Shown: piece after piece, positions 29,430-55,437 of the stretch
How positions within the stretch are numbered: position 1 is the stretch's first letter
Layout: the number at the start of each line of letters is the position of its first letter
Origin: Candidatus Amesbacteria bacterium
GTDB lineage: Bacteria; Patescibacteriota; Microgenomatia; CAZETR01; Amesbacteraceae
NCBI GenBank assembly: GCA_027371535.1
Contig: DAHXMV010000005.1
Location: 1-55,437 of the forward strand
Length of the DNA stretch: 55,437 bases
Direction of reading: 5' to 3'
Translations under genes and position numbers: made by a program
Notes under the pieces: generated by a model
Database searches by the model: none
What the model saw: the letters and a program-made list of their open reading frames with translations, nothing else
Told to the model about the DNA's origin: nothing

Positions 29430-31781
29430 ATGATAAACGGAGTTGATCCTGTAAGGGTGTTGTGGGAACTGGTGGGTATCGTATTGTTAATACTGTCGCC
29501 ATTTCTGGTAATAGCGGCGGCAATATATGCCTGGATTTTGTGGTACCGGCATAAAGACAGGGAAGAGGCATCGCTTAAAATGGTGTGTCTCTCAGTGGCC
29601 GTGCCCCGGGATAATGAAATTAAAATTGATGCCATGGACCAGATTTTTTCCAGCATCTATTCGATTAAAAAAGGGAGCAGGGGATGGTTTGGAATGCTGA
29701 ATTTTCTGCAGGTGCAGCCGCATATCAGTTTCGAGATTGTGGCCAGGAAAGAAGACATCAGATTTTATATTGTGGTACCGGAAAAGCTGCGGGATCTGGT
29801 GGAGAAAGCCGTCAACGGGGGATATCCGGGGGCGGAAATTACGGTGACAGATGAACCGACAATTTTTTCGGAGACCGGTAAAGTGCAGTTTGCCTGGCTG
29901 GTCTTAAGAAATGCAGCCTACAATCCGGTCCAGACTTACAAAAACCTGGCTACGGATCCCATGTCCGGCCTGACATCCGCCCTGGCTAAAATGGGGGATG
30001 ATGAAGGTGCACACATTCAGATATTGGTGACTCCGGCTGATGCCAAGTGGAAGAGCAAGGGCCGGGCATGGATCGGGAAAACCAAAAGGAATGAAGCGAA
30101 TCCGGAAAAAGCCAGCTACAAAGTGGATCCGAAAGTAATGGAATCGGTGGAAAGCAAGGTCAGTAAGTCGGGTTACTGGACTACCATCAGGGTGGTGGTG
30201 TCGGCAGCTGATAAAGACGTAGCCAAAATGCACATCGACAACATTAAGGCTTCCTTTGAGCAATATAACGGAGACCTGAACGGGTTTAAAGGAAAGAAAG
30301 TGCGACTCAAAGGCTTGTTCATGCAGGATTTTATTTACCGATATCAGCCGGTAATCAGGTGGGGAGACTGGACAGTGTTAAATACGGAAGAACTGGCAAC
30401 AATCTATCATTTTCCGAATAAGACGGTGGAAACACCGCATATCCACTGGCTGTCGGCCAAAAGGGCACCGGCACCGCAGGGAATTGCGACTTCAGGCCTG
30501 TATATAGGTAAGTCGGTTTTTCGCGGAATAACCAGGCCGGTATATATTACAGACCCGGACAGGGAAAGACATATGTATATCATCGGGAGAACGGGGACAG
30601 GAAAAACAGAATTAATGAAAACAATGATTTTGCAGGACCTGAGGGCCGGAAAAGGAATTTGTGTCATTGACCCCCATGACCTGGCTGAAGATTTGCTGGG
30701 TTATATTCCGCCTGAAAGAGCCGAAGATGTAATCTTTTTTGATCCGTCGGATGAAGATTGGCCGATGGGACTGAACCTTTTAGAGACACATTCGGAGGGG
30801 GAACGGCATATGGCGACCAATGCAGTCATCGGGATGATGTACAAACTATACGATCCGCATAAAACGGGGATTATCGGGCCCCGGTTTGAACATGCTATCA
30901 GAAATGCCATGCTGACGGTTATGGATGCCATTCCCGGAGGGACGTTCATAGAAGTTGTGCAGGCACTGCAACGGCCGGAATTTGTGCAGGAAATGCTGCC
31001 CCGGGTCCGCGATCCGTTGGTCCGGAGGTATTGGACGGACCAGATTGCCCAGACCTCGGATTTTCATAAATCGGAAGTATTGGACTATATTGTGTCCAAA
31101 TTCGGACGGTTTGTGACCAATAAAACCATCAGAAATATTATCGGGCAGAATGTATCGGCGTTTGATTTCCGGAGGGTGATGGATGAGGGTAAAATCCTGA
31201 TAATAAATCTGGCCAAGGGGAAGTTGGGGGAGGAAAACAGTAATTTCCTGGGTTTGGTGCTGGTACCGAGGCTAGTGGCGGCCGCCATGAGCAGGGCGAA
31301 TATCCCAGAGAGCCAGAGGCGGCCATTTTACCTGTATGTGGATGAGTTTCAGAATTTTGCCACACCGGATTTTGCGACTATTTTGTCCGAAGCCAGAAAG
31401 TACAAGCTGGATCTGATTGTGGCCAACCAATTCACTTCCCAAATGGAAGATGAGGTAAAGAATGCGGTTTTCGGCAACGTAGGAACACTGATGTCATTTC
31501 GGACCGGAGTAGCCGATGCGAACTTTTTACAGCATGAATTTACGCCCACATTTAACGAAGCGGACCTATTAAATATTGAGAGATTTCATGTATATATTAA
31601 AACGATTGTGAATAACGAGCCGGTGGTGCCGTTTTCGATGGATGTGACCAAAGATATCAAGGCCGAGAGAGGGATGTACAATGAGAAACTGGCTGCCGCC
31701 ATAAAACAACTTTCCAGGCTGAAATTCGGCAGGGATGTGAAGCTGGTGGAGCATGAAATAGCAGAGAGATCAAAGTTATGA
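29430..31781 (+). CDS. Membrane-anchored TraD/VirD4/HerA-like P-loop ATPase
   Basis: N-terminal TM segment. Walker A GRTGTGKTE, Walker B YLYVDEFQNF. TraD/TraG-type C-terminal region. Confidence 0.7.
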   Translation: MINGVDPVRVLWELVGIVLLILSPFLVIAAAIYAWILWYRHKDREEASLKMVCLSVAVPRDNEIKIDAMDQIFSSIYSIKKGSRGWFGMLNFLQVQPHISFEIVARKEDIRFYIVVPEKLRDLVEKAVNGGYPGAEITVTDEPTIFSETGKVQFAWLVLRNAAYNPVQTYKNLATDPMSGLTSALAKMGDDEGAHIQILVTPADAKWKSKGRAWIGKTKRNEANPEKASYKVDPKVMESVESKVSKSGYWTTIRVVVSAADKDVAKMHIDNIKASFEQYNGDLNGFKGKKVRLKGLFMQDFIYRYQPVIRWGDWTVLNTEELATIYHFPNKTVETPHIHWLSAKRAPAPQGIATSGLYIGKSVFRGITRPVYITDPDRERHMYIIGRTGTGKTELMKTMILQDLRAGKGICVIDPHDLAEDLLGYIPPERAEDVIFFDPSDEDWPMGLNLLETHSEGERHMATNAVIGMMYKLYDPHKTGIIGPRFEHAIRNAMLTVMDAIPGGTFIEVVQALQRPEFVQEMLPRVRDPLVRRYWTDQIAQTSDFHKSEVLDYIVSKFGRFVTNKTIRNIIGQNVSAFDFRRVMDEGKILIINLAKGKLGEENSNFLGLVLVPRLVAAAMSRANIPESQRRPFYLYVDEFQNFATPDFATILSEARKYKLDLIVANQFTSQMEDEVKNAVFGNVGTLMSFRTGVADANFLQHEFTPTFNEADLLNIERFHVYIKTIVNNEPVVPFSMDVTKDIKAERGMYNEKLAAAIKQLSRLKFGRDVKLVEHEIAERSKL

Positions 31782-32795: not shown

Positions 32796-32866
32796 GGATC
32801 CATCGTTCACTGGTAGGACGGAACTCTTATAAAGTTCAGAACTTGGTCCGATTCCAAGTGGATCCA
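32796..32866 (+). tRNA. tRNA-Ile(UAU)-like, 71 nt, atypical T loop
   Basis: Hand-folded cloverleaf. Acceptor GGATCCA/TGGATCC, D arm GTTC-ACTGGTA-GGAC, anticodon arm GAACT-CTTATAA-AGTTC, variable loop AGAA, T arm CTTGG-TCCGATT-CCAAG, discriminator A. No encoded CCA. Confidence 0.6.
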
Positions 32867-32922
32867 CTATCTTGTTTATATTTGGTCTGACTCTTGTGTT
32901 AAAAGATAGAGGTAAAAATGGG

Positions 32923-45736: not shown

Positions 45737-47359
45737 ATGAATAAGTCATCTGACCAATATACCAATCACGAATTAGGGGATGTATATTTCGCCCAACACA
45801 CAATCTCGACCGAGTTTGCTGTTCAACAGGGAATAACTTGGGACGAAAAAGAAGTGCACATCCCTGTTAGGGATGAAGAAGGTAATGTAATTTTTTCGAA
45901 ACACCGAAACCTTCACTTCACTCCCCACGATACCAACTCCCCACCTAAATACCGCTACGATGCGGGTTCCAAAGCCGCCCTGTTTAATTTCCACGCAGTC
46001 AAGGCGAAGGCCTACATTGTCATCTCGGAGGGTGAGGTGGATTGCCTGAAATTAAGTCAGGAAGACATACCCTCCGTGTCTTCTACCGGCGGAGCTAACA
46101 CTTTCCTGCCTGAGTGGGCTGAACTACTGAAAGACAAGTCGGTGTTTATCTGCCTGGATAACGACAAAGCTGGCCGGGATGGCACAGCCAAAATCACCGC
46201 TTTGCTTCCCGACGCCAAAATAGTCCAATTACCAGAAAACAACAAGGATATTTGTGAATATTTCGCAGATAACCACTCAAAAGAGGATTTCATTGCTTTA
46301 CTTCAAGAGGCTCTGACAATCCCTGAATGGTTACAAAAAAATGAACCGCCGGATTTCAAATGGGTCAGTGCTGAAGAACTAGTCGCCAAAGAGTTTCCGG
46401 AGGAACAGTGGCTGATCGACAAAATCCTATATATGGAAGGCTTTTGTTTTATTTACGGCGCCGAAGGTGTGGGGAAAAGTTTTATCACCTTATCCATGGC
46501 TCAGGCAATAGCTACGGGAACGCCTTGGCTAGGACACTTTCGGGTTCCCCGACCCGGTAGGGTGTTGTTTATCGATAAGGAGAATCCTCTACCTATTCTG
46601 GCAAAGCGCCTGAATGGCATGAAAATTACCGGCGAAAACATTTTCTGGTTGGAACGACCTGAACTCCTAGCTCTCGTCAATATCAAGGGCGAGCTCACTG
46701 ACTTTTTCAAATCGTTATCTCAAAAAGTCCAGAACGAAAAGATCGACCTGATTATTGTCGACTCCTTTGTTGACTTAATGGTTGGTTCCGAAAATTCAGC
46801 AGAAGATACCCAAGGTTTTTTCGAAACTATGCGGACAAACTTCCCGCATAAAACTATTCTACTTATCCACCATGAGAGTAAACCGATACAGGGAGCTTTC
46901 CGAACTGACGCCCAACGCACCCGGGGTTCCACCAATATCAACGCTCAAGCAATTACCCAATTCCGGCTTGAGTCGGTAGCTAAGTCCAAGACAGATCTTA
47001 CTCTCAAGCAAACCAAAGCCCGGAATAGCGAGAAGTTGGATAAGTTCGTGATGAAAATGGTAGTGGAGCAGATTGATGAAAACAATTCTCAAATCACCGG
47101 TTTTGAATATTTAGGTGAAGTGGTAGGAGATGAATCTAAATTTGAGGAAACTAAGCAAATGATACTTGACTTATTTGCCGATAAAATAGTTGTCTCAAGA
47201 GTGGAAGTTGACCAACATTGCGAAGCTAACAATATATCCCCGAGAACTATCGCATCTGTTATTAAAGAAATGATAGATAAAAAAGAACTTTTGGAGTTTC
47301 CGAATGAACAAGATAGAAGAAAAAGAGATTATTCACTCCCAGACAATGAAGAGTCCTAA
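45737..47359 (+). CDS. Toprim-domain primase fused to a RepA/AAA_25-like ATPase
   Basis: EGEVDCLKL and LDNDKAGRDG (Toprim). Walker A GAEGVGKSF, Walker B LIIVDSF. Confidence 0.75.
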   Translation: MNKSSDQYTNHELGDVYFAQHTISTEFAVQQGITWDEKEVHIPVRDEEGNVIFSKHRNLHFTPHDTNSPPKYRYDAGSKAALFNFHAVKAKAYIVISEGEVDCLKLSQEDIPSVSSTGGANTFLPEWAELLKDKSVFICLDNDKAGRDGTAKITALLPDAKIVQLPENNKDICEYFADNHSKEDFIALLQEALTIPEWLQKNEPPDFKWVSAEELVAKEFPEEQWLIDKILYMEGFCFIYGAEGVGKSFITLSMAQAIATGTPWLGHFRVPRPGRVLFIDKENPLPILAKRLNGMKITGENIFWLERPELLALVNIKGELTDFFKSLSQKVQNEKIDLIIVDSFVDLMVGSENSAEDTQGFFETMRTNFPHKTILLIHHESKPIQGAFRTDAQRTRGSTNINAQAITQFRLESVAKSKTDLTLKQTKARNSEKLDKFVMKMVVEQIDENNSQITGFEYLGEVVGDESKFEETKQMILDLFADKIVVSRVEVDQHCEANNISPRTIASVIKEMIDKKELLEFPNEQDRRKRDYSLPDNEES

Positions 47360-47407
47360 CAATCCAACAATATGCAAGTCAACCCACCTCATGCAAAAGA
47401 ATACCTG

Positions 47408-47428
47408 CAAATATGCAAAGCATATTTG
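47408..47428. repeat. Perfect 9-bp inverted repeat CAAATATGC-AAA-GCATATTTG within an ATGCAA-rich tract
   Basis: Read directly. ATGCAA hexamers at 47372, 47391 and 47413. Confidence 0.7.
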
Positions 47429-47540
47429 AATGTATTCTGCATGCATCTATTTTTCAGTAAAACCATACCTACATATTTTAATCCTGGTTCGACATTGATT
47501 GAACTTGACGGAAAGGGGCGGCTGATAGCTGCTTACCGGC

Positions 47541-47699
47541 ATGATAAATAATGAGGCAGATATTGAAGAGTTTCGGAGGTTATATTTTCAAGTGTTTGGC
47601 TTGGAAATTGACTTCCAAACGGCGGCAGAATTGGCAAACCGGTTGATAAGTATTGTTAGGATAGTTTACTTCCCGGACTTGAAAGCTAAAAATGATTGA
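47541..47699 (+). CDS. 52-aa hypothetical ORF (below the ORF-track cutoff)
   Basis: MINNEADIEEFRRLYFQVFGLEIDFQTAAELANRLISIVRIVYFPDLKAKND. No family recognised. Confidence 0.25.
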   Translation: MINNEADIEEFRRLYFQVFGLEIDFQTAAELANRLISIVRIVYFPDLKAKND

Positions 47700-47730
47700 C
47701 ATTCGTAGCCAAAGTGCAAGAATTATAGGT

Positions 47731-47795
47731 GAGCTCAATTTTACCCTTCGGCTTTTTAGTGGCCGTCTCAGTCAAATCCGAAGGGGTTTGAGCTC
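47731..47795 (+). promoter_or_regulatory. Long imperfect hairpin upstream of the serine recombinase gene
   Basis: GAGCTCAATTTTACCCTTCGG ... CCGAAGGGGTTTGAGCTC. Ends 24 nt before ATG 47820. Confidence 0.5.
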
Positions 47796-47819
47796 AAACT
47801 GGGGCGGCCGCTTGAATTT

Positions 47820-49637
47820 ATGAATCAATTTCCAGACCAGTCTCAATTGAAATGTATTGGTTATGCTCGGAAATCGTCTGAGGACAACAAGGAGCGCCAA
47901 GCTGCTAGCCTACCGGAGCAACTTTACATACTTGAGGGGATGAAATCTCGCCTTAAACTTCGGATTGTGGGAATATTGGAAGAATCAAAATCAGCTCACC
48001 AAAAAGGTAGGGAGGTTTTTGAATCAATGTTGGCTAGAGTTGAAGCGGGTGGCGCGAATGCTATCGTAACCTGGCATCCAAATCGTCTGGCTCGAAATAT
48101 GACTGACGGCGGAAGAATTATTGATCTAATGGACTCAGGGAAGCTAATTGAGGTGATAACGCCTTCTAGGGCTTATCTCAACACTCCGGAGGATAAATTT
48201 ATGCTGACTCTGGAGTTTGGATTATCTAAAAAGGACTCTGACGATAAAGCAATCGTTGTAACCAGGGGTTTGGAGAAGAAGTGCCGGGATGGTTGGCGGC
48301 CGGGGGTAGCACCACAAGGCTACCTGAACGACAAAGCGACGGAAAGTGGTTTCCGGCAGGTACTGAAGGACCCGGAAAGGTTTGAGCAGGTTAAAAAGCT
48401 GCTACTCATGTTTTTAGAAGGCGAATCCGTAAATAATTTGCATAGGATAGCTAAAGACGAGTGGGGTTATCGGACAAACCAAAAGAAACGTTCCGGCGGT
48501 GTACCCTTATCTATTTCTATGATTTACAAAATGTTGACAAACCCATTTTACTGTAAAAAATTTGAGTATCCGGAGGGCAGTGGTATTTGGTATCCGGGAA
48601 AACATGAGGCAATGATCACGGAAGATCAATTCAAACAAATTCAGGTGCGGTTGGGGAAGAGAGGTAAATACACATTACAAAACCATGAGTACTCCTTTAC
48701 ATCACTTATAAAGTGTGGCGAATGTAATTCGGTTATCACTGCCGAACAAAAACACCAGGCAATCTGTACAAAATGCAGATACAAATTTTCTCTGACCAAG
48801 AAAAATAAGGACCACTGCACCAAATGCGGAACTAGGATAGAGGAGATGAAGAAACCGACTATTTTGGACTATACATATTACCGCTGCACCAGAAGTCAAC
48901 GCCCCGGGTGCATGCAGAAGGGGCTGAGGCTAGATAAATTGGAAGAGCAGGTAGATTACGAGCTGAGCCAAGTGGAAATCCACCCTCTGTTTGCTCAATG
49001 GGCGTTAAAGCAAATTGAAAAGATGAATCAGGATGAAATCAAGTTGAGAGAAGACAACATCAATAACATTAAAAGGGCTCATGATGCAGCAAGAGCCAAA
49101 CTGGACAACTTGTTACATCTTAAAATCTCTCCGGCTAATTCGGATGGGAGTTTACTGTCGGATGAGAAATTTAGGGAGGAGAAACTAGAGATAGAGACAG
49201 AGGTTAAGAGTTTGGAGAATCAGCTGGCTAATACTGACCAGAGAATGTTGCAGGTGGCTCATGACATTAACGAGACCTTTGAGTTTGCGACGCTGGCCCA
49301 GCAGCGGTTTGCCGCGGCGGATTTAAAGACCAAACGAAAAATGGCCATGGACCTCGGGACGCACCTAATTTTGAAGGACAAAAAAGTCCTGTTTGATAAT
49401 CCATTTCCGATTTTCAAACTTAAAGAGATCAAAAAGGAAGTTCCGTCAGTTGCAATTACACCCGCACCTGAAAATTATGCCTTAGAATCAACAAAAATGG
49501 AGGCTTATTGGGCCTCCATTCCTACTTTGTTGCGGGGCCGGGAATCGCACCCGGTCTGGAAGATTATGAGCCTTCCGTGCGGCTTTACACTACCCCGCAT
49601 ATCAAGGAACCTATTTATTATAACATCGGAATATTAG
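47820..49637 (+). CDS. Large serine recombinase
   Basis: IGYARKSSEDNKERQAASLPEQ catalytic region, recombinase domain, Cys-rich zinc ribbon (CGECNS...CTKCG...YYRC), coiled coil. The last ~36 codons are antisense to a tRNA, so the true stop/tail is uncertain. Confidence 0.85.
   Translation: MNQFPDQSQLKCIGYARKSSEDNKERQAASLPEQLYILEGMKSRLKLRIVGILEESKSAHQKGREVFESMLARVEAGGANAIVTWHPNRLARNMTDGGRIIDLMDSGKLIEVITPSRAYLNTPEDKFMLTLEFGLSKKDSDDKAIVVTRGLEKKCRDGWRPGVAPQGYLNDKATESGFRQVLKDPERFEQVKKLLLMFLEGESVNNLHRIAKDEWGYRTNQKKRSGGVPLSISMIYKMLTNPFYCKKFEYPEGSGIWYPGKHEAMITEDQFKQIQVRLGKRGKYTLQNHEYSFTSLIKCGECNSVITAEQKHQAICTKCRYKFSLTKKNKDHCTKCGTRIEEMKKPTILDYTYYRCTRSQRPGCMQKGLRLDKLEEQVDYELSQVEIHPLFAQWALKQIEKMNQDEIKLREDNINNIKRAHDAARAKLDNLLHLKISPANSDGSLLSDEKFREEKLEIETEVKSLENQLANTDQRMLQVAHDINETFEFATLAQQRFAAADLKTKRKMAMDLGTHLILKDKKVLFDNPFPIFKLKEIKKEVPSVAITPAPENYALESTKMEAYWASIPTLLRGRESHPVWKIMSLPCGFTLPRISRNLFIITSEY
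49530..49599 (-). tRNA. Atypical tRNA-like gene, CAU anticodon, initiator-like acceptor stem
   Basis: Hand fold. TGCGGGG/CCCCGCA, TA, D arm GTGT-AAAGCC-GCAC (no GG), anticodon arm GAAGG-CTCATAA-TCTTC, variable loop CAGA, T arm CCGGG-TGCGATT-CCCGG, discriminator A, then CAA rather than CCA. Confidence 0.5.
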
Positions 49638-51836: not shown

Positions 51837-51972
51837 ATGAAAAAAGATAACGAAATAATGTATGAAACCGAGGCCGCGTACCGGACGGTACACGGTTTAG
51901 TTTGGGTGCTTTGAGGAAAAAGATTGTAAAGTATACAAGGTATTAGTTTTAGAGCGGAAACTGGAAGAGCAA

Positions 51973-52539
51973 ATGTTTGCAGCGGCTTGTGAAGGATTCA
52001 GAAGAGTACCAACAGAGGATTTCCGAAAAGATGTGGCAGAGCATGTCCGGGACGGAGTACTGTATGTGATTATTAAGGATAGTAAGGCGGTGGGCTTTGC
52101 AGTTTTTAAGGATTATCCGGAACTGAAAACGACATATATATCCGGGATTGTAAAAGGATCCGGAACTCCGTCAGGGATTGTGGAAAAGATAGTGGCCAGG
52201 CACGTTAGTAATTTTGAAACTGCGGTGGTGAGAACCCAAAATGACCGGGTGGTGGAAATAATGAAAGGAGTATGCAGAGAAGTGATACCGATCAGACGGG
52301 AAGCCGATGAAAAAGACCTGGATATATTGAAACAAACTAAATTATTTTCTCCGAAAATGAGCTCTGATTTGGTAGTACACGGACATTACAGTGGCAGTCC
52401 AATGATCGGGGAGGGCGAAAGAAGACGCAGTCAGGACGAAGAAGTAAGAAAAACCACCGACCGCCTGGATTACGAAAAAGGCGATGCGCTCATACTGATT
52501 GGGTTTATTGGGTGTTACAATAATGAAGTCACAACCTAA
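51973..52539 (+). CDS. Hypothetical protein, possibly GNAT-fold
   Basis: VLYVIIKDSKAVGFAVF...ISGIVKGSGTPSGIVEKIV loosely fits the GNAT beta4-alpha3 pattern. Weak assignment. Confidence 0.3.
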   Translation: MFAAACEGFRRVPTEDFRKDVAEHVRDGVLYVIIKDSKAVGFAVFKDYPELKTTYISGIVKGSGTPSGIVEKIVARHVSNFETAVVRTQNDRVVEIMKGVCREVIPIRREADEKDLDILKQTKLFSPKMSSDLVVHGHYSGSPMIGEGERRRSQDEEVRKTTDRLDYEKGDALILIGFIGCYNNEVTT

Positions 52540-52545
52540 AAATTT

Positions 52546-54003
52546 ATGATTGATGAACAGGTACAAAAATACAGTGAAGAATTAAAAAAACTGGGGATTG
52601 AGCACCGGGTGATGGAGCACCCGGATATGGTGGAAGCGGAAAAAGTACAGGCCTATTTAAATGACGATTTATCCGGCAGCTGCCCGACGCTGATTTTTAA
52701 AGCCGGGGACAATTTCGTAGCCCTGGTTAAAAGAGGCGATGTCAGGCTGGACAACGGAAAAATGAAAAAGGCGCTGGGGGTGACCAATCTGAGAATGGCC
52801 AATAAAGAGGAATTTGAAAATCTGACCGGGGTGCCGGTCGGGGCGGCCAGAGTTTTCAATTCCGGGCTGAAAACTTACCTGGATAAAAGCATATTTGAAA
52901 AGGAATATTTAAACGGCGGGACGGGGAGTTTTGAAGTAACATTTAAATATAAAACGGCGGATTTGAAAAAAATTCCGGGGGCGGCGGTAGTGGAAGTAAC
53001 GGACGGCGGGAAAGCGCGAATCTTTGCCGGGATGAGACCAACGGGAAGGCTCCATTTGGGAAATTATCTGGGGTCGGCCAAGGGGATGCTGGCATTACAA
53101 AATATGCCGGAATACGAGACCATTTTTATGGTAGTAGACCTGCACGGAATTACCACACCATACGACAGGGCGGGTTACCGGGAAAATATCAGACAGGTGA
53201 TGCTGGATTATTTAGCCATCGGGCTGGATCCGGAAAAGTCGATACTGACCGTCCAGTCCAGAGTCCCGGAACATATAGAACTGGCATATCTATTTTCGAC
53301 GGTGACCACAATAGCCAAAATGTCCCATTTACCGACGTTTAAGGAGAAAGTGAAACAGTATCCGGAGCATGTGACGATGGCCCTACTTAATTATCCGGTG
53401 CTGATGGCAGCGGATATCCTGGTTTATAAAGCGGAAAAGGTACCGGTGGGGATCGACCAGGAGCCGCATCTGGAAGTAGCCAGAGAAATTGCCAGGAGAA
53501 TGAATCAGGAATACGGAACGGATTTTCCGGCACCTACCAGATTTGCAACCAAAGGGGAATATGTGCCGTCGCTCTCCGGAGAAGGCAAGATGAGCAAGTC
53601 GGTGGAAGGCAGCTATATCAATCTGACCGATGACCTGAAAACCGTGACGGTAAAAATAGCCAGGATGCCGACGGATATGGGCGGGCCCGGGGAGGTACCC
53701 AAGGAGGGGCCGGTGGCAAATATTTTTAAATTTATGGAATTGTTTAAACCGGATAAACTGGAATATTATGCGGGGCTTTATGTCCAGGGAAAATTAAGGT
53801 ATGCGGAGATGAAGGATGATTTGGCCAGGGCTATTTTTGATGAGATCAGACCGATACAGGAGCGGAGAACGGAGATCGAAGCCAGATCCGGATATGCGGA
53901 AAAAGTGATTGAAGAAGGGGCGGTAAAAGCCCGTGACATAGCACAAATTACATTAAAAGAAGTTAGGGAGAAAATGGGATTAAATGGGATTTTGGGAACT
54001 TGA
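52546..54003 (+). CDS. trpS: Tryptophanyl-tRNA synthetase with an N-terminal YbaK/ProX-like (aminoacyl-tRNA deacylase) domain
   Basis: Residues ~1-165 follow the YbaK pattern (PTLIFKAGDNFVALVKRGDVRLDNGKMKKALGV..LRMA..EEFENLTGVPVGAA). The remainder is TrpRS with HIGH (RLHLGNY) and KMSKS. Confidence 0.8.
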   Translation: MIDEQVQKYSEELKKLGIEHRVMEHPDMVEAEKVQAYLNDDLSGSCPTLIFKAGDNFVALVKRGDVRLDNGKMKKALGVTNLRMANKEEFENLTGVPVGAARVFNSGLKTYLDKSIFEKEYLNGGTGSFEVTFKYKTADLKKIPGAAVVEVTDGGKARIFAGMRPTGRLHLGNYLGSAKGMLALQNMPEYETIFMVVDLHGITTPYDRAGYRENIRQVMLDYLAIGLDPEKSILTVQSRVPEHIELAYLFSTVTTIAKMSHLPTFKEKVKQYPEHVTMALLNYPVLMAADILVYKAEKVPVGIDQEPHLEVAREIARRMNQEYGTDFPAPTRFATKGEYVPSLSGEGKMSKSVEGSYINLTDDLKTVTVKIARMPTDMGGPGEVPKEGPVANIFKFMELFKPDKLEYYAGLYVQGKLRYAEMKDDLARAIFDEIRPIQERRTEIEARSGYAEKVIEEGAVKARDIAQITLKEVREKMGLNGILGT

Positions 54004-54009
54004 TTAAAG

Positions 54010-55437
54010 ATGGATGAACCGGTGGAACAATTGACTGTAGACCAAGTAAAAAATGCTTATCATAGTTTCAGAGTTGAGGTAAATTCGAAAGAGGGAGTAG
54101 TCCAAAGAGCGGCAAGTGCAGTCGGCAGCTTACGGCCGAGATCCAGTGAAGAGGAAATCAAAACACGGCAACAATCCCTGGATGAAAAGAAAGAGAGGAT
54201 AGATAATCAGCGGAGAATTTCCGGTTTACAATTAGGTCCATCAATACAAGTTTCGGATAGGAAAGTTTCAGAGCAACTGGATGCGGAAAAGTTCATTTTA
54301 TTCAGGTTATTAACCACCGGTGAATATAGGCGCCTAATAACACCGGCAGCTGCGGCCAAGGTTGTGGGTCTAAGATGGGCACGGGAAGTTTTTCCTGACG
54401 GGGTTAATGGTCCGAACTTACAGGTAAAAGATTTTGACGGAAATTTGTTACCGGAAGGGTTTATTCAGGAAGTAGGGAATAATCAAAACTTAAGAGACCA
54501 AACGGGCAGGAGGCGGGAATTTTACCTGCGGGTAGCCAAAGACCCAAAGTTATTTAAGTTGAGAGAGCAGGTATATAGGACGGAAATATTTCATTTAGAA
54601 CCGGAAGAATATGAGGATCTGGTGGCTGAAGCAGTACTAAAGAAAATTAGTGACCTCAGAAATAGGGATTTGGGTTACGGGGAGAATGAGGCTGCGAGCA
54701 AGGGACTGGAAATGGAAATATACAAAAAGGATAATTTGACTCAACCGGGAGTGAGAATAAACCTTGAAGCAATGCAGGAGTTAGGAGTACCGGTGACATA
54801 TGACGGATGTAGGGAATTGCCATTACCCTGGTCGGTATCCATGCGGGATCAGCTGAGAGCTTTGTATGAAATGATAAAAGCCGGGGTAATACCTGTTGAG
54901 TACAGCATAAATTTTCATCTGAATTTCGGAGGCGCGGATTGGCATGAAGGTTTGGAGGATGCATTTGTGCTGCAACAAATAATCGATGCTTCAGGGATGA
55001 TGAATGCTGCCTCTTTAAGACCTGTGAAGCTAAACAACGGATCTGACATAGGAATATATTTACAGGGTTATGGGGAAAAGGAATTAATTGAGAGAGTAGT
55101 GTCTCCCCGGGGACAACCGGTTAGGATACGGATGAACGGGGTCCTGGAATTGAGACATTTTCAACAAAGATGGGCAGATTCCCAGATTACAGTAATTAAT
55201 AGCGAATTGCCGGAAGAAGATAAGAATTGGGCATACAAGAGGGAATTATGGTCGATGTTCCGGGATCTGAATAACATCGGAGCAATGGTAGAAGCGGCTA
55301 CTGCCAGCATTAGACTAAAGACGGGGAAAAGTTCGGATCCGGAAAGAGACACAGAATTAGCTCGGGTATGGGAAATTGCTAAATTGAGAAATCTGGAACT
55401 GGCGGATAAATTTAAAATTGACGATGCAAAAGCTCTT
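54010..55437 (+). CDS. Large hypothetical protein, 3'-truncated by the window end (476 codons seen). The C-terminal half has glutamine-synthetase-like amidoligase-type motifs.
   Basis: Hand translation from ATG 54010 found no stop to the window end. Absent from the ORF track because it has no stop. Motifs: GLEMEI (E234, E236), INFHLNFGG (H303), LELRHF (E380, R382). Confidence 0.7.
   Translation, partial: MDEPVEQLTVDQVKNAYHSFRVEVNSKEGVVQRAASAVGSLRPRSSEEEIKTRQQSLDEKKERIDNQRRISGLQLGPSIQVSDRKVSEQLDAEKFILFRLLTTGEYRRLITPAAAAKVVGLRWAREVFPDGVNGPNLQVKDFDGNLLPEGFIQEVGNNQNLRDQTGRRREFYLRVAKDPKLFKLREQVYRTEIFHLEPEEYEDLVAEAVLKKISDLRNRDLGYGENEAASKGLEMEIYKKDNLTQPGVRINLEAMQELGVPVTYDGCRELPLPWSVSMRDQLRALYEMIKAGVIPVEYSINFHLNFGGADWHEGLEDAFVLQQIIDASGMMNAASLRPVKLNNGSDIGIYLQGYGEKELIERVVSPRGQPVRIRMNGVLELRHFQQRWADSQITVINSELPEEDKNWAYKRELWSMFRDLNNIGAMVEAATASIRLKTGKSSDPERDTELARVWEIAKLRNLELADKFKIDDAKAL

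What the first reader, a model, noticed from the sequence alone, without database searches (positions are those of the whole stretch)
52546..54003. TrpRS fused to an N-terminal YbaK/ProX-type deacylase domain
Residues ~1-165 follow the YbaK/aminoacyl-tRNA deacylase pattern (…PTLIFKAGDNFVALVKRGDVRLDNGKMKKALGV.NLRMA..EEFENLTGVPVGAA…GGTGSFEV). They are joined directly to a complete class I TrpRS (HIGH = RLHLGNY; KMSKS present). TrpRS is not known to me to carry any editing domain, and YbaK-type modules normally act in trans or in ProRS. The fusion implies either proofreading of a mischarged tRNA-Trp or recruitment of the domain for tRNA binding.
Basis: partly seen in the sequence, partly recalled or inferred. 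Interest (0 to 1): 0.65.

Follow-up and report, generated by a model that had tools for sequence, protein, structure and literature searches.

The report
Tryptophan tRNA synthetase with unusual proofreading-like domain
An uncultured candidate-phyla-radiation (CPR) bacterium from mine drainage makes its tryptophan-charging enzyme fused to a conserved but rewired copy of a tRNA-proofreading domain, and gene neighbours suggest, without proving, that it strips wrongly attached (possibly mirror-image D-) tryptophan from tRNA.

Summary
ORF 52546..54003 (+, 485 aa) is one uninterrupted gene. Residues 25-142 match PF04073 (tRNA_edit, 70 bits). Residues 157-485 are a complete bacterial TrpRS (TIGR00233 282 bits, HLGN, KMSKS, TM 0.92 to solved TrpRS).

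It is not an artefact. 117 of the 120 best database homologs share the architecture, and an independent assembly covers the junction without differences.

The domain is not a canonical YbaK/ProX deacylase. The Lys described as strictly conserved in this superfamily is absent in 112 of 112 fused and 46 of 46 free-standing relatives. The GXXXP loop has lost its Pro. A dibasic pair (K62-R63) appears on the neighbouring strand.

This Lys-less clade occurs N-terminal, C-terminal, tandem, split and free-standing relative to trpS. It sits in trp operons. In 7 of about 22 loci it lies directly behind an amino-acid racemase gene, which is itself often preceded by a TrpR-like gene. In Anaerolineae, canonical dtd directly follows trpS.

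Best reading: a TrpRS-dedicated aminoacyl-tRNA quality-control module, plausibly clearing D-Trp-tRNATrp. The main rival is a non-catalytic tRNA-binding appendage. I found no description of this fusion in the searchable literature.

The parts
52546..54003 (+). Whole fused gene: Lys-less INS/YbaK-like domain joined to bacterial-type TrpRS (485 aa plus stop)
52546..53013 (+). N-terminal module, residues 1-156. The Pfam PF04073 match covers residues 25-142 (nt 52618-52971). The AF2 model gives pLDDT 88-98 here with an alpha/beta secondary structure
52684..52686 (+). Codon for P47, the position of the superfamily's conserved catalytic Lys (K45 in ProXp-ala, K279 in E. coli ProRS, K46 in YbaK). The fused family reads A62/P23/S19/Q4/V3/T1 here, with no Lys
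   Evidence: PMC10164551
52699..52701 (+). Codon for K52 (K or R in 109 of 112). It lies five residues after the Lys position, the same spacing as K45 to K50 in ProXp-ala, where K50 contacts the first acceptor-stem base pair. The equivalence is inferred from spacing only
   Evidence: PMC10164551
52729..52734 (+). Codons for K62-R63, a clade-specific dibasic pair on the strand paired with the strand that starts at residue 47. Canonical members have a hydrophobic residue followed by Pro, Arg or Ser here
52840..52854 (+). G99-A-A-R-V, the loop that replaces the GXXXP motif. G99 is invariant, A100 and A101 are 89-97% conserved, position 102 is R or H in 93 of 112, and Pro is at position 103 in only 3 of 112
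   Evidence: PMC11286415
52915..52929 (+). G124-G-T-G-S, a glycine-rich pocket loop retained from the superfamily (G125 invariant, G127 in 111 of 112)
52972..53013 (+). Short linker, about residues 143-156 (IPGAAVVEVTDGGK), between the two domains. It is variable in length and sequence across the family
53014..54000 (+). TrpRS catalytic and anticodon-binding body, residues 157-485
53053..53064 (+). HIGH-type signature HLGN (residues 170-173)
   Evidence: invariant in the family
53587..53601 (+). KMSKS loop (residues 348-352)
   Evidence: conserved in the family
51973..52539 (+). Upstream co-oriented ORF (188 aa) that ends 6 nt before the trpS start, so it is probably co-transcribed. It has no significant family match (weak GNAT hit, E 0.08). 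A 32%-identical homolog also sits directly upstream of the N-domain in metagenome locus L107

Best explanation
The gene encodes the organism's TrpRS carrying an appended module from a previously uncharacterised, Lys-less clade of the INS/YbaK editing-domain superfamily.

Shown here:
- The fusion is real and under purifying selection.
- The module keeps the fold and the glycine-rich pocket loops.
- It has lost the canonical Lys and the Pro of the GXXXP loop.
- It has gained a conserved dibasic pair (K/R62-K/R63) on the neighbouring beta-strand and a conserved R/H102 in the loop.
- The same module is found N-terminal, C-terminal, duplicated, split from, or free of trpS.
- It is embedded in tryptophan operons and is frequently placed directly downstream of an amino-acid racemase gene.

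Inferred:
- The module still binds the aminoacylated 3' end of tRNA. The relocated basic residues would replace the lost Lys in steering the C75-A76 phosphate.
- It acts as a post-transfer quality-control hydrolase for tRNATrp, in cis when fused and in trans when free.

Most specific proposal, with the least support: its substrate is D-Trp-tRNATrp. TrpRS would make this when D-tryptophan is present, for example through the neighbouring racemase. On this reading the module does for TrpRS what DTD does elsewhere.

My graded belief is about 0.75 that it is a tRNATrp 3'-end-directed accessory module, about 0.5 that it is hydrolytic, and about 0.3 that it is D-specific.
For: Fold and family: PF04073 at 70 bits. 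A family profile hits the ProRS INS domain 5znj at E 1.7e-13 and the free-standing homologs 3op6, 1wdv and 2cx5.

Selection: mean identity to the query is 52% for the N-domain and 61% for the TrpRS body across 111 homologs. Y9, H25, G99, D113 and G125 are invariant.

Relocated charge: position 62 is K/R in 0 of 88 Lys-containing homologs and in 31 of 55 Lys-less homologs. It is K/R in 111 of 112 fused proteins. Position 63 is K/R in 111 of 112 fused and 45 of 46 free-standing proteins. The AF2 model (pLDDT 92.6) places residues 48-53 and 56-61 as a hairpin, so residue 62 faces residue 47.

Rosetta-stone pattern with TrpRS:
- N-terminal fusions in 117 of the 120 best homologs.
- A C-terminal fusion, P0132.
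- Tandem copies, P0040 and P0135.
- A split gene pair in L104.
- The same module on a second TrpRS lineage. In fused L090, L092, L096 and L108 the N-domain is 55-60% identical to the window's but the TrpRS body only 30-33%. Split L104 is similar, at 50% and 35%.

Trp context: trpF-trpB-trpA, trpD-trpC or TrpB2 genes are adjacent.

D-amino-acid context:
- An amino-acid racemase (TIGR00035 138-142 bits) lies immediately upstream in L089, L090, L099, L100, L104, L105 and P0015.
- A TrpR-family gene lies directly upstream of that racemase in L105, L113, L115 and L116.
- Canonical dtd (TIGR00256 161-175 bits in the two tested) lies downstream of trpS in 5 of 6 Anaerolineae loci. The gap is 3 nt in Leptolinea tardivitalis and about 390 nt in L022.
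- E. coli DTD acts on D-Trp-tRNATrp, and dtd mutants are sensitive to D-Trp (PMC1807948).
Against: - The Lys is described as strictly conserved, and its mutation impairs deacylation in every INS member tested (PMC10164551). All characterised members use the Lys plus GXXXP (PMC11286415). Loss of both is the classic signature of a pseudo-enzyme.
- The claimed compensation by K62/R63 rests on secondary structure and covariation. It is not based on a 3D superposition, and the Fisher test ignores phylogeny.
- Close relatives (79-83% identical TrpRS, P0039 and P0089) lack the domain entirely, so it is dispensable.
- The window itself has neither a racemase nor trp genes next to the gene.
- No INS-family protein is known to be D-specific.
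- I could not determine whether these genomes also carry dtd.
- No full racemase-edit fusion appeared among the 120 best racemase homologs.
Confidence: 0.5

Rival explanations
1. The module is a catalytically dead appendage. It helps TrpRS bind or retain tRNATrp at the acceptor stem or CCA end, or it protects or hands off Trp-tRNATrp. This would parallel the AlaX-like N-terminal domain of Plasmodium falciparum TrpRS.
For: Both hallmark catalytic motifs are lost (PMC10164551 and PMC11286415). K52 is retained at the spacing of ProXp-ala K50, which contacts the acceptor stem, and the domain is rich in conserved basic residues: K52, K/R62-63, K72, K74, K75, R83 and K142. There is a precedent. Plasmodium TrpRS has an AlaX-like domain that lost its editing residues and is needed for activity and tRNA binding (PMC4828885). 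A free-standing tRNA_bind (Trbp111/CsaA-like) gene lies directly downstream of trpS in many of these loci, which suggests that this TrpRS recruits extra tRNA-binding modules.
Against: About 50 clusters of free-standing 153-aa versions exist. Most are not next to trpS, and several sit in a tight operon with a racemase. That is hard to explain for a mere TrpRS tRNA handle. The glycine-rich loops that line the aminoacyl pocket in the superfamily are the most conserved part (G99 and G125 invariant, G127 in 111 of 112). The pattern of a lost Lys with a gained neighbouring dibasic pair looks like compensation rather than decay. The module works at either end of TrpRS.
Confidence: 0.3
2. The module is an ordinary ProX/YbaK-type trans-editing factor for Ala- or Cys-tRNAPro, or for Abu-, Ser- or Thr-tRNAs, that merely happens to be fused to TrpRS.
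For: The best sequence matches among solved structures are the ProRS INS domain and ProX-like proteins. Public annotations of the free-standing forms read 'prolyl-tRNA editing enzyme YbaK/EbsC'.
Against: The canonical Lys and the GXXXP Pro are absent. TIGR00011 YbaK scores 22-25 bits against a cutoff of 153. Every recurrent genomic link is to tryptophan genes (trpS, trpFBA, trpDC, TrpB2, TrpR-like) and none is to proS. The public names are family-level transfers, not tests.
Confidence: 0.05
3. The module binds a free small molecule, such as D- or L-tryptophan or an analogue, and regulates TrpRS or the racemase. It would be a sensor rather than a tRNA-directed module.
For: The pocket loops are conserved while the phosphate-steering Lys is lost. 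The module is linked to a racemase and a TrpR-like regulator.
Against: No INS-superfamily member is known to act as a ligand sensor. Conserved surface basic residues and the link to a tRNA-charging enzyme point to an RNA substrate. No test here supports it directly.
Confidence: 0.1
4. The fusion is an assembly, frameshift or gene-calling artefact that joins two separate genes.
For: Split (L104) and unfused (P0039, P0089, P0119) arrangements exist in relatives.
Against: The window has one continuous ORF. An independent contig is identical across the junction. 117 of the 120 best homologs from many samples and sources have the same architecture, with a conserved start (M-x-D-x-K-V-x-x-Y-S) and an in-frame linker.
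Confidence: 0.01

Closest known systems
INS editing domain of bacterial ProRS (for example PDB 5znj and 2j3l; E. coli K279)
   Same: It is the best sequence match among solved structures (profile E 1.7e-13). It shares the PF04073 fold and is likewise an editing-type domain built into a synthetase polypeptide.
   Different: INS is inserted inside class II ProRS and uses the conserved Lys plus the GXXXP loop to hydrolyse Ala-tRNAPro. Here the domain is appended to the N-terminus of class I TrpRS and lacks both motifs.
Free-standing INS-superfamily trans-editing factors: YbaK, ProXp-ala, ProXp-x (TTHA1699, 2cx5), APE2540 (1wdv), ProXp-ST1/2
   Same: They share the fold, the size (about 150-160 aa) and the Gly-rich pocket loops. 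The Lys-less clade also has free-standing members.
   Different: All characterised members keep the Lys and the GXXXP loop (PMC11286415). The Lys-less clade has A/P/S at that site and a dibasic pair on the adjacent strand. Its gene context is tryptophan and racemase genes, not proline. YbaK equivalog membership was tested and failed. Whether the clade corresponds to the uncharacterised ProXp-8 or ProXp-9 clusters could not be checked.
ProXp-ala fused to the N-terminus of ProRS in lower eukaryotes (Plasmodium, Trypanosoma)
   Same: An INS-superfamily domain is fused to the N-terminus of a synthetase (PMC11295145 and PMC11286415).
   Different: That partner is ProRS, the synthetase whose errors the domain corrects, and the domain is a canonical Lys-containing Ala-tRNAPro deacylase.
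AlaX-like N-terminal domain of Plasmodium falciparum cytosolic TrpRS
   Same: It is the only TrpRS with an appended editing-type domain that I found in the literature. That domain has also lost the canonical editing residues (PMC4828885).
   Different: It has an unrelated fold (AlaX/tRNA_SAD, not PF04073), the enzyme is a eukaryotic-type TrpRS, and the domain is reported to be required for activity. Here close relatives do without the domain.
D-aminoacyl-tRNA deacylase (DTD1, TIGR00256)
   Same: The similarity is a proposed functional analogy only. DTD clears D-Trp-tRNATrp (PMC1807948). dtd lies downstream of trpS in 5 of 6 Anaerolineae loci, directly adjacent in Leptolinea tardivitalis, much as the Lys-less module adjoins or fuses to trpS in CPR bacteria.
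   Different: The fold and motifs are unrelated, and DTD family models do not hit this protein. D-specificity of the module is untested.

Membership tests
Bacterial-type tryptophanyl-tRNA synthetase (TIGR00233 trpS, class Ic) | Score above the curated equivalog cutoff | tested here: met
   281.6 bits against a cutoff of 176.75, residues 156-479 covering the full model
Bacterial-type tryptophanyl-tRNA synthetase (TIGR00233 trpS, class Ic) | HIGH-type and KMSKS class I signature motifs | tested here: met
   HLGN at residues 170-173 and KMSKS at 348-352. Both are conserved across the family
Bacterial-type tryptophanyl-tRNA synthetase (TIGR00233 trpS, class Ic) | Fold matches solved TrpRS structures | tested here: met
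   AF2 model pLDDT 92.6. Foldseek target-normalised TM 0.92, rmsd 2.1 A to B. stearothermophilus TrpRS 5dk4. All top 50 hits are TrpRS
Bacterial-type tryptophanyl-tRNA synthetase (TIGR00233 trpS, class Ic) | Trp-specific aminoacylation of tRNATrp | not testable with these tools
   Needs an enzyme assay
INS / YbaK / ProX editing-domain superfamily (Pfam PF04073 tRNA_edit) | Sequence match to the family model above the gathering score | tested here: met
   70.3 bits (73.5 for residues 1-165 alone) against 25.5, covering profile positions 1-122 of 123
INS / YbaK / ProX editing-domain superfamily (Pfam PF04073 tRNA_edit) | Conserved Lys that positions A76 (K45 ProXp-ala, K279 ProRS, K46 YbaK), described as strictly conserved | tested here: not met
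   P47 in the window. 0 of 112 fused and 0 of 46 free-standing clade members have Lys. Five independent alignments to solved structures place the canonical K opposite this position
INS / YbaK / ProX editing-domain superfamily (Pfam PF04073 tRNA_edit) | GXXXP loop | tested here: not met
   The loop is G99-A-A-R-V. Pro is at the fifth position in 3 of 112 fused members, whereas canonical homologs read G-x-V-P-P
INS / YbaK / ProX editing-domain superfamily (Pfam PF04073 tRNA_edit) | Hydrolysis of a mischarged aminoacyl-tRNA | not testable with these tools
   Needs deacylation assays
YbaK proper (Cys-tRNAPro deacylase, TIGR00011) | Score above the equivalog cutoff | tested here: not met
   21.7 to 25.1 bits against a cutoff of 153.25
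D-aminoacyl-tRNA deacylase DTD1 (TIGR00256 / PF02580) | DTD fold or family-model match | tested here: not met
   Pfam and NCBIfam scans of the protein gave no DTD hit at E up to 1. The resemblance proposed is functional only
Non-catalytic appended editing-like domain of Plasmodium TrpRS (AlaX-like) | AlaX / tRNA_SAD fold | tested here: not met
   Only PF04073 is detected in residues 1-165. The fold is different, so this is an analogue, not a relative

The most novel reading that the evidence does not exclude
The Lys-less INS-like clade is a new, fold-independent class of chiral proofreading enzyme, a D-aminoacyl-tRNA deacylase dedicated to TrpRS. It would form part of a CPR-specific module (TrpR-like regulator, amino-acid racemase, deacylase, TrpRS, tRNA-binding protein). 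The module would let these auxotrophic episymbionts use D-tryptophan or racemised amino-acid pools without putting D-Trp into protein. The catalytic Lys of the superfamily would have migrated to the neighbouring strand while the pocket was rebuilt for a bulky indole side chain.
Probability: 0.27. Interest if true: 0.88.

Novelty: new variant of a known kind. Interest (0 to 1): 0.7.

Why it matters
TrpRS is regarded as a synthetase that needs no editing, and I found no described TrpRS fused to an INS/YbaK-type domain.

This family shows three things. An entire radiation of uncultured bacteria has attached such a module to TrpRS, at either end and on two diverged TrpRS lineages. The residue treated as the defining catalytic feature of the superfamily can be lost family-wide while the domain stays under strong selection. 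And the module travels with tryptophan genes and an amino-acid racemase.

If it is an active deacylase, it extends proofreading to a new synthetase, shows a migrated catalytic residue, and may reveal a further solution to D-amino-acid exclusion from translation. If it is inactive, it is a second, independent case after Plasmodium of TrpRS recruiting a dead editing fold.

Either result also corrects a widespread annotation. The free-standing forms are labelled Cys-tRNA(Pro) deacylase, and the fused forms simply tryptophan--tRNA ligase.

Tried and rejected
- The single-sequence AlphaFold run was useless (pLDDT 36.8) and used one of two jobs. The run with a 112-sequence alignment was good.
- Foldseek of the full-length model returned only TrpRS chains in the 50 rows shown. 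There is therefore no structural ranking of the N-domain and no 3D check of the K62/R63 relocation.
- The search for related loci with the 22-sequence N-domain alignment failed because no conserved stretch was found.
It returned only unfused TrpRS loci, none with the N-domain within 6 kb. I therefore have no GTDB-wide taxonomic count of the fusion. Those loci did later reveal the trpS-dtd pairing.
- The listing of cluster members returned no organism names.
- The search for racemase-edit fusion proteins found none among the 120 best racemase homologs. P0015 is a read-through of a truncated racemase.
- TrpB2, SerK-like, tRNA_bind, racemase and TrpR-like genes were all sought in the window and not found.
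- The upstream ORF188 and the downstream ORF have no family match.
- The canonical trans-editing (ProX/YbaK) reading and the artefact reading were considered and rejected, as set out under the rival explanations.
Its hits were verified with TIGR00256. The absence of hits in the CPR loci means nothing, because they cover a tiny part of each genome.
Full report
**Observation.** The window holds a single ORF at 52546..54003 on the + strand, 485 aa with an ATG start.
- Pfam places PF04073 (aminoacyl-tRNA editing domain) at residues 25-142 (70.3 bits against a gathering score of 25.5).
- Pfam places PF00579 (class I W/Y synthetase) at residues 155-430.
- NCBIfam TIGR00233 trpS scores 281.6 bits against a cutoff of 176.75.
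- HLGN (170-173) and KMSKS (348-352) are present.
- With a 112-sequence alignment, AlphaFold gives pLDDT 92.6. Foldseek matches the C-terminal two thirds to solved bacterial TrpRS at TM 0.92.

**Not an artefact.**
- Of the 120 best homologs among 5.8 billion clustered proteins, 117 carry both domains in one chain at 53-80% identity. Where sources name them, they are called only tryptophan--tRNA ligase from Patescibacteria or Roizmanbacteria.
- The family shares the same N-terminus and an in-frame linker.
- The window derives from a mine-drainage metagenome. An independently assembled contig of a public run covers 51900-54100 with no differences.

**What the N-domain is.** It belongs to the INS/YbaK/ProX fold family. 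A family profile hits the ProRS INS domain (5znj, E 1.7e-13) and free-standing homologs (3op6, 1wdv, 2cx5). It is not a canonical member.
- In every alignment to a solved structure, the conserved Lys (KTLIV, KTMIF, KSLVF) faces P47 of the query.
- Across 112 full-length relatives that position reads A62/P23/S19/Q4/V3/T1. Across 46 free-standing relatives it reads P/S/A/Q/R. It is never Lys.
- The GXXXP loop reads G99-A-A-(R/H)-(V/I/Y).
- The YbaK equivalog model scores 22-25 bits against a cutoff of 153.

The literature is explicit on these motifs. [quoted passage not shown] All characterised members use the Lys and the GXXXP loop (PMC11286415).

**The domain is not decaying.**
- Its mean identity to the query is 52%, against 61% for the synthetase body.
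- Y9, H25, G99, D113 and G125 are invariant.
- An exhaustive profile search of 1.84 billion representatives shows that the top-scoring group (above 100 bits) is uniformly Lys-less. Canonical Lys/GxVPP proteins begin below about 90 bits.
- In that set, position 62 is K/R in 0 of 88 Lys-containing proteins and in 31 of 55 Lys-less proteins. Position 63 is K/R in 18 of 91 against 39 of 55.
- In the fused family, positions 62-63 are basic in 111 of 112 each.
- The model places residues 48-53 and 56-61 as a two-residue-turn hairpin, so residue 62 is the cross-strand neighbour of residue 47.

I read this as relocation of the phosphate-steering positive charge. It is an inference. I could not superpose coordinates, and the statistics ignore shared ancestry. 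K52 keeps the +5 spacing of ProXp-ala K50, which contacts the first acceptor-stem base pair.

**Distribution of the module.**
- C-terminal to a TrpRS: P0132 (TIGR00233 275 bits).
- Tandem copies: P0040 and P0135.
- With an extra B3/4 editing-type domain between it and TrpRS: P0010.
- As a separate gene whose stop codon abuts the trpS start: L104.
- As about 50 clusters of free-standing 153-aa proteins on contigs of up to 1.2 Mb, one of them named from Saccharimonadales.

In fused L090, L092, L096 and L108 the module is 55-60% identical to the window's, but the attached TrpRS is only 30-33% identical while still being a bona fide trpS. Split L104 is similar, at 50% and 35%. The same module therefore sits on two diverged TrpRS lineages.

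Conversely, TrpRS proteins 77-83% identical to the window's lack it. P0039 lies in a syntenic ABC-transporter context. P0039, P0089 and P0119 nest inside the fused clade in a crude NJ tree. The module is a mobile, dispensable accessory that is specifically tied to TrpRS.

**Gene context**.
- Fused genes sit directly after trpF-trpB-trpA (L092, L108), after trpB-trpA (L096), after TrpB2 plus a SerK-like fragment (L081), or before trpD-trpC (L111).
- A small tRNA_bind (Trbp111/CsaA-like) gene often follows trpS.
- In 7 of about 22 independent loci, an amino-acid racemase of the Asp-racemase subfamily (TIGR00035 138-142 bits, cutoff 93) lies immediately upstream of the module. This holds whether the module is free (L089, L099, L100, L105), split (L104) or fused (L090, with a 4-nt overlap, and P0015, a read-through seen in two assemblies).
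- Sampling the racemase from the other side, a TrpR-family gene (PF01371; TIGR01321 53-56 bits, below the cutoff) sits about 10 nt upstream in 3 of 4 Microgenomates contigs. In L105 the order is TrpR-like, racemase, module.
- In 5 of the 6 Anaerolineae loci retrieved, canonical dtd lies downstream of trpS. It scores TIGR00256 161-175 bits in the two that were tested. The gap is 3 nt in Leptolinea tardivitalis and about 390 nt in L022.
- E. coli DTD is active on D-Trp-tRNATrp, and dtd mutants are sensitive to D-Trp (PMC1807948).

The window itself has none of these neighbours. Its upstream gene is an unannotatable 188-aa ORF with a homolog in the same position in L107.

**Mechanism.** I commit to this reading: the module is an aminoacyl-tRNA 3'-end-directed quality-control domain dedicated to tRNATrp. 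It acts in cis when fused and in trans when free. Relocated basic residues substitute for the lost Lys, and the pocket has been rebuilt. The most specific version is that it removes D-Trp from tRNATrp in organisms that racemise or scavenge tryptophan.

The fusion, the conservation, the motif changes and the gene linkages are shown. Substrate binding, hydrolysis and D-specificity are inferred.

The main rival, at about 0.3, is a catalytically dead tRNA-binding appendage like the AlaX-like domain of Plasmodium TrpRS (PMC4828885). Canonical ProX/YbaK trans-editing and artefact are essentially excluded.

**Novelty.** Full-text searches found no description of a TrpRS-INS/YbaK fusion or of a Lys-less INS clade. 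[quoted passage not shown] I cannot exclude that the clade corresponds to one of those clusters. I classify it as a new variant of a known kind.

Noticed in passing
L030:5992-7422 (Leptolinea tardivitalis YMTK-2); also L022, L026, L039, L059: In 5 of the 6 Anaerolineae genomes sampled, canonical D-aminoacyl-tRNA deacylase (dtd) lies downstream of trpS. The gap is 3 nt in L030 and about 390 nt in L022. I have not seen this trpS-dtd pairing described.
   Followed up: partly
L113:3236-4202, L115:3236-4205, L116:3241-4208, L105:4005-4981: In Microgenomates (Roizman-, Shapiro- and Pacebacteria), an 83-84-aa TrpR-family gene sits about 10 nt upstream of an Asp-racemase-subfamily amino-acid racemase. 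This suggests a tryptophan-linked racemase operon.
   Followed up: partly
P0186; P0236, P0259; P0210 (proteins, not in the window): Canonical, Lys-containing PF04073 domains are also fused to an archaeal-type TyrRS (P0186), to the C-terminus of AspRS/AsnRS-type class II synthetases (P0236, P0259) and to RuvX (P0210). TyrRS, AspRS and TrpRS are the three synthetases whose D-aminoacyl products DTD is known to clear.
   Followed up: partly
P0010 (722 aa, 11 member sequences; not in the window): A relative with 72% identity carries a B3/4 domain (PF03483, the PheRS-beta / CtdA editing fold) inserted between the Lys-less module and TrpRS. That gives two editing-type folds on one TrpRS.
   Followed up: partly
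L081:8213-9942 (GCA_040961665.1, 1.03-Mb contig): A TrpB2-type PLP enzyme (NF009057 694 bits) and a 133-aa fragment resembling ADP-dependent serine kinase SerK lie directly upstream of the fused trpS. This hints at indole plus phosphoserine salvage feeding TrpRS.
   Followed up: partly
window 45737-49637 and 29430-31781: A Toprim/AAA_25 primase-helicase-like gene, a large serine recombinase (Resolvase + Recombinase + Zn ribbon) and a T4SS coupling-protein-like ATPase lie a few kb upstream of trpS. Together they suggest an integrated mobile element. A similar serine recombinase lies just downstream of the free-standing module in L095.
   Followed up: no
window 49529-49599 (-): ARAGORN calls a third tRNA here (Met, CAT) that Rfam does not confirm. 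It lies inside the serine-recombinase ORF (47820..49637) and is probably a false positive.
   Followed up: no
window 32796-32867 (+): A tRNA-Ile with anticodon TAT (UAU), confirmed as a tRNA by Rfam. This is an uncommon way for bacteria to read AUA.
   Followed up: no
window 1-36000: GC skew on the + strand is very strong and sustained (0.2-0.33 per 2-kb bin, with a monotonic cumulative curve). It drops to about 0 around 36-48 kb, the region holding the putative mobile element.
   Followed up: no
window 54010-55437 (+): A long ORF starts 7 nt after the trpS stop and runs off the window end (more than 476 aa). It has no Pfam match and no homolog in any related locus fetched.
   Followed up: partly
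L099:439-1155, L089:5289-5996, L104, L105 versus L090:7267-8004: The racemases next to free-standing modules have Ser in place of the first of the two catalytic Cys (SNTVH instead of CNTVH). The one next to the fused gene in L090 keeps both Cys. The Ser forms may be unidirectional or altered racemases.
   Followed up: no
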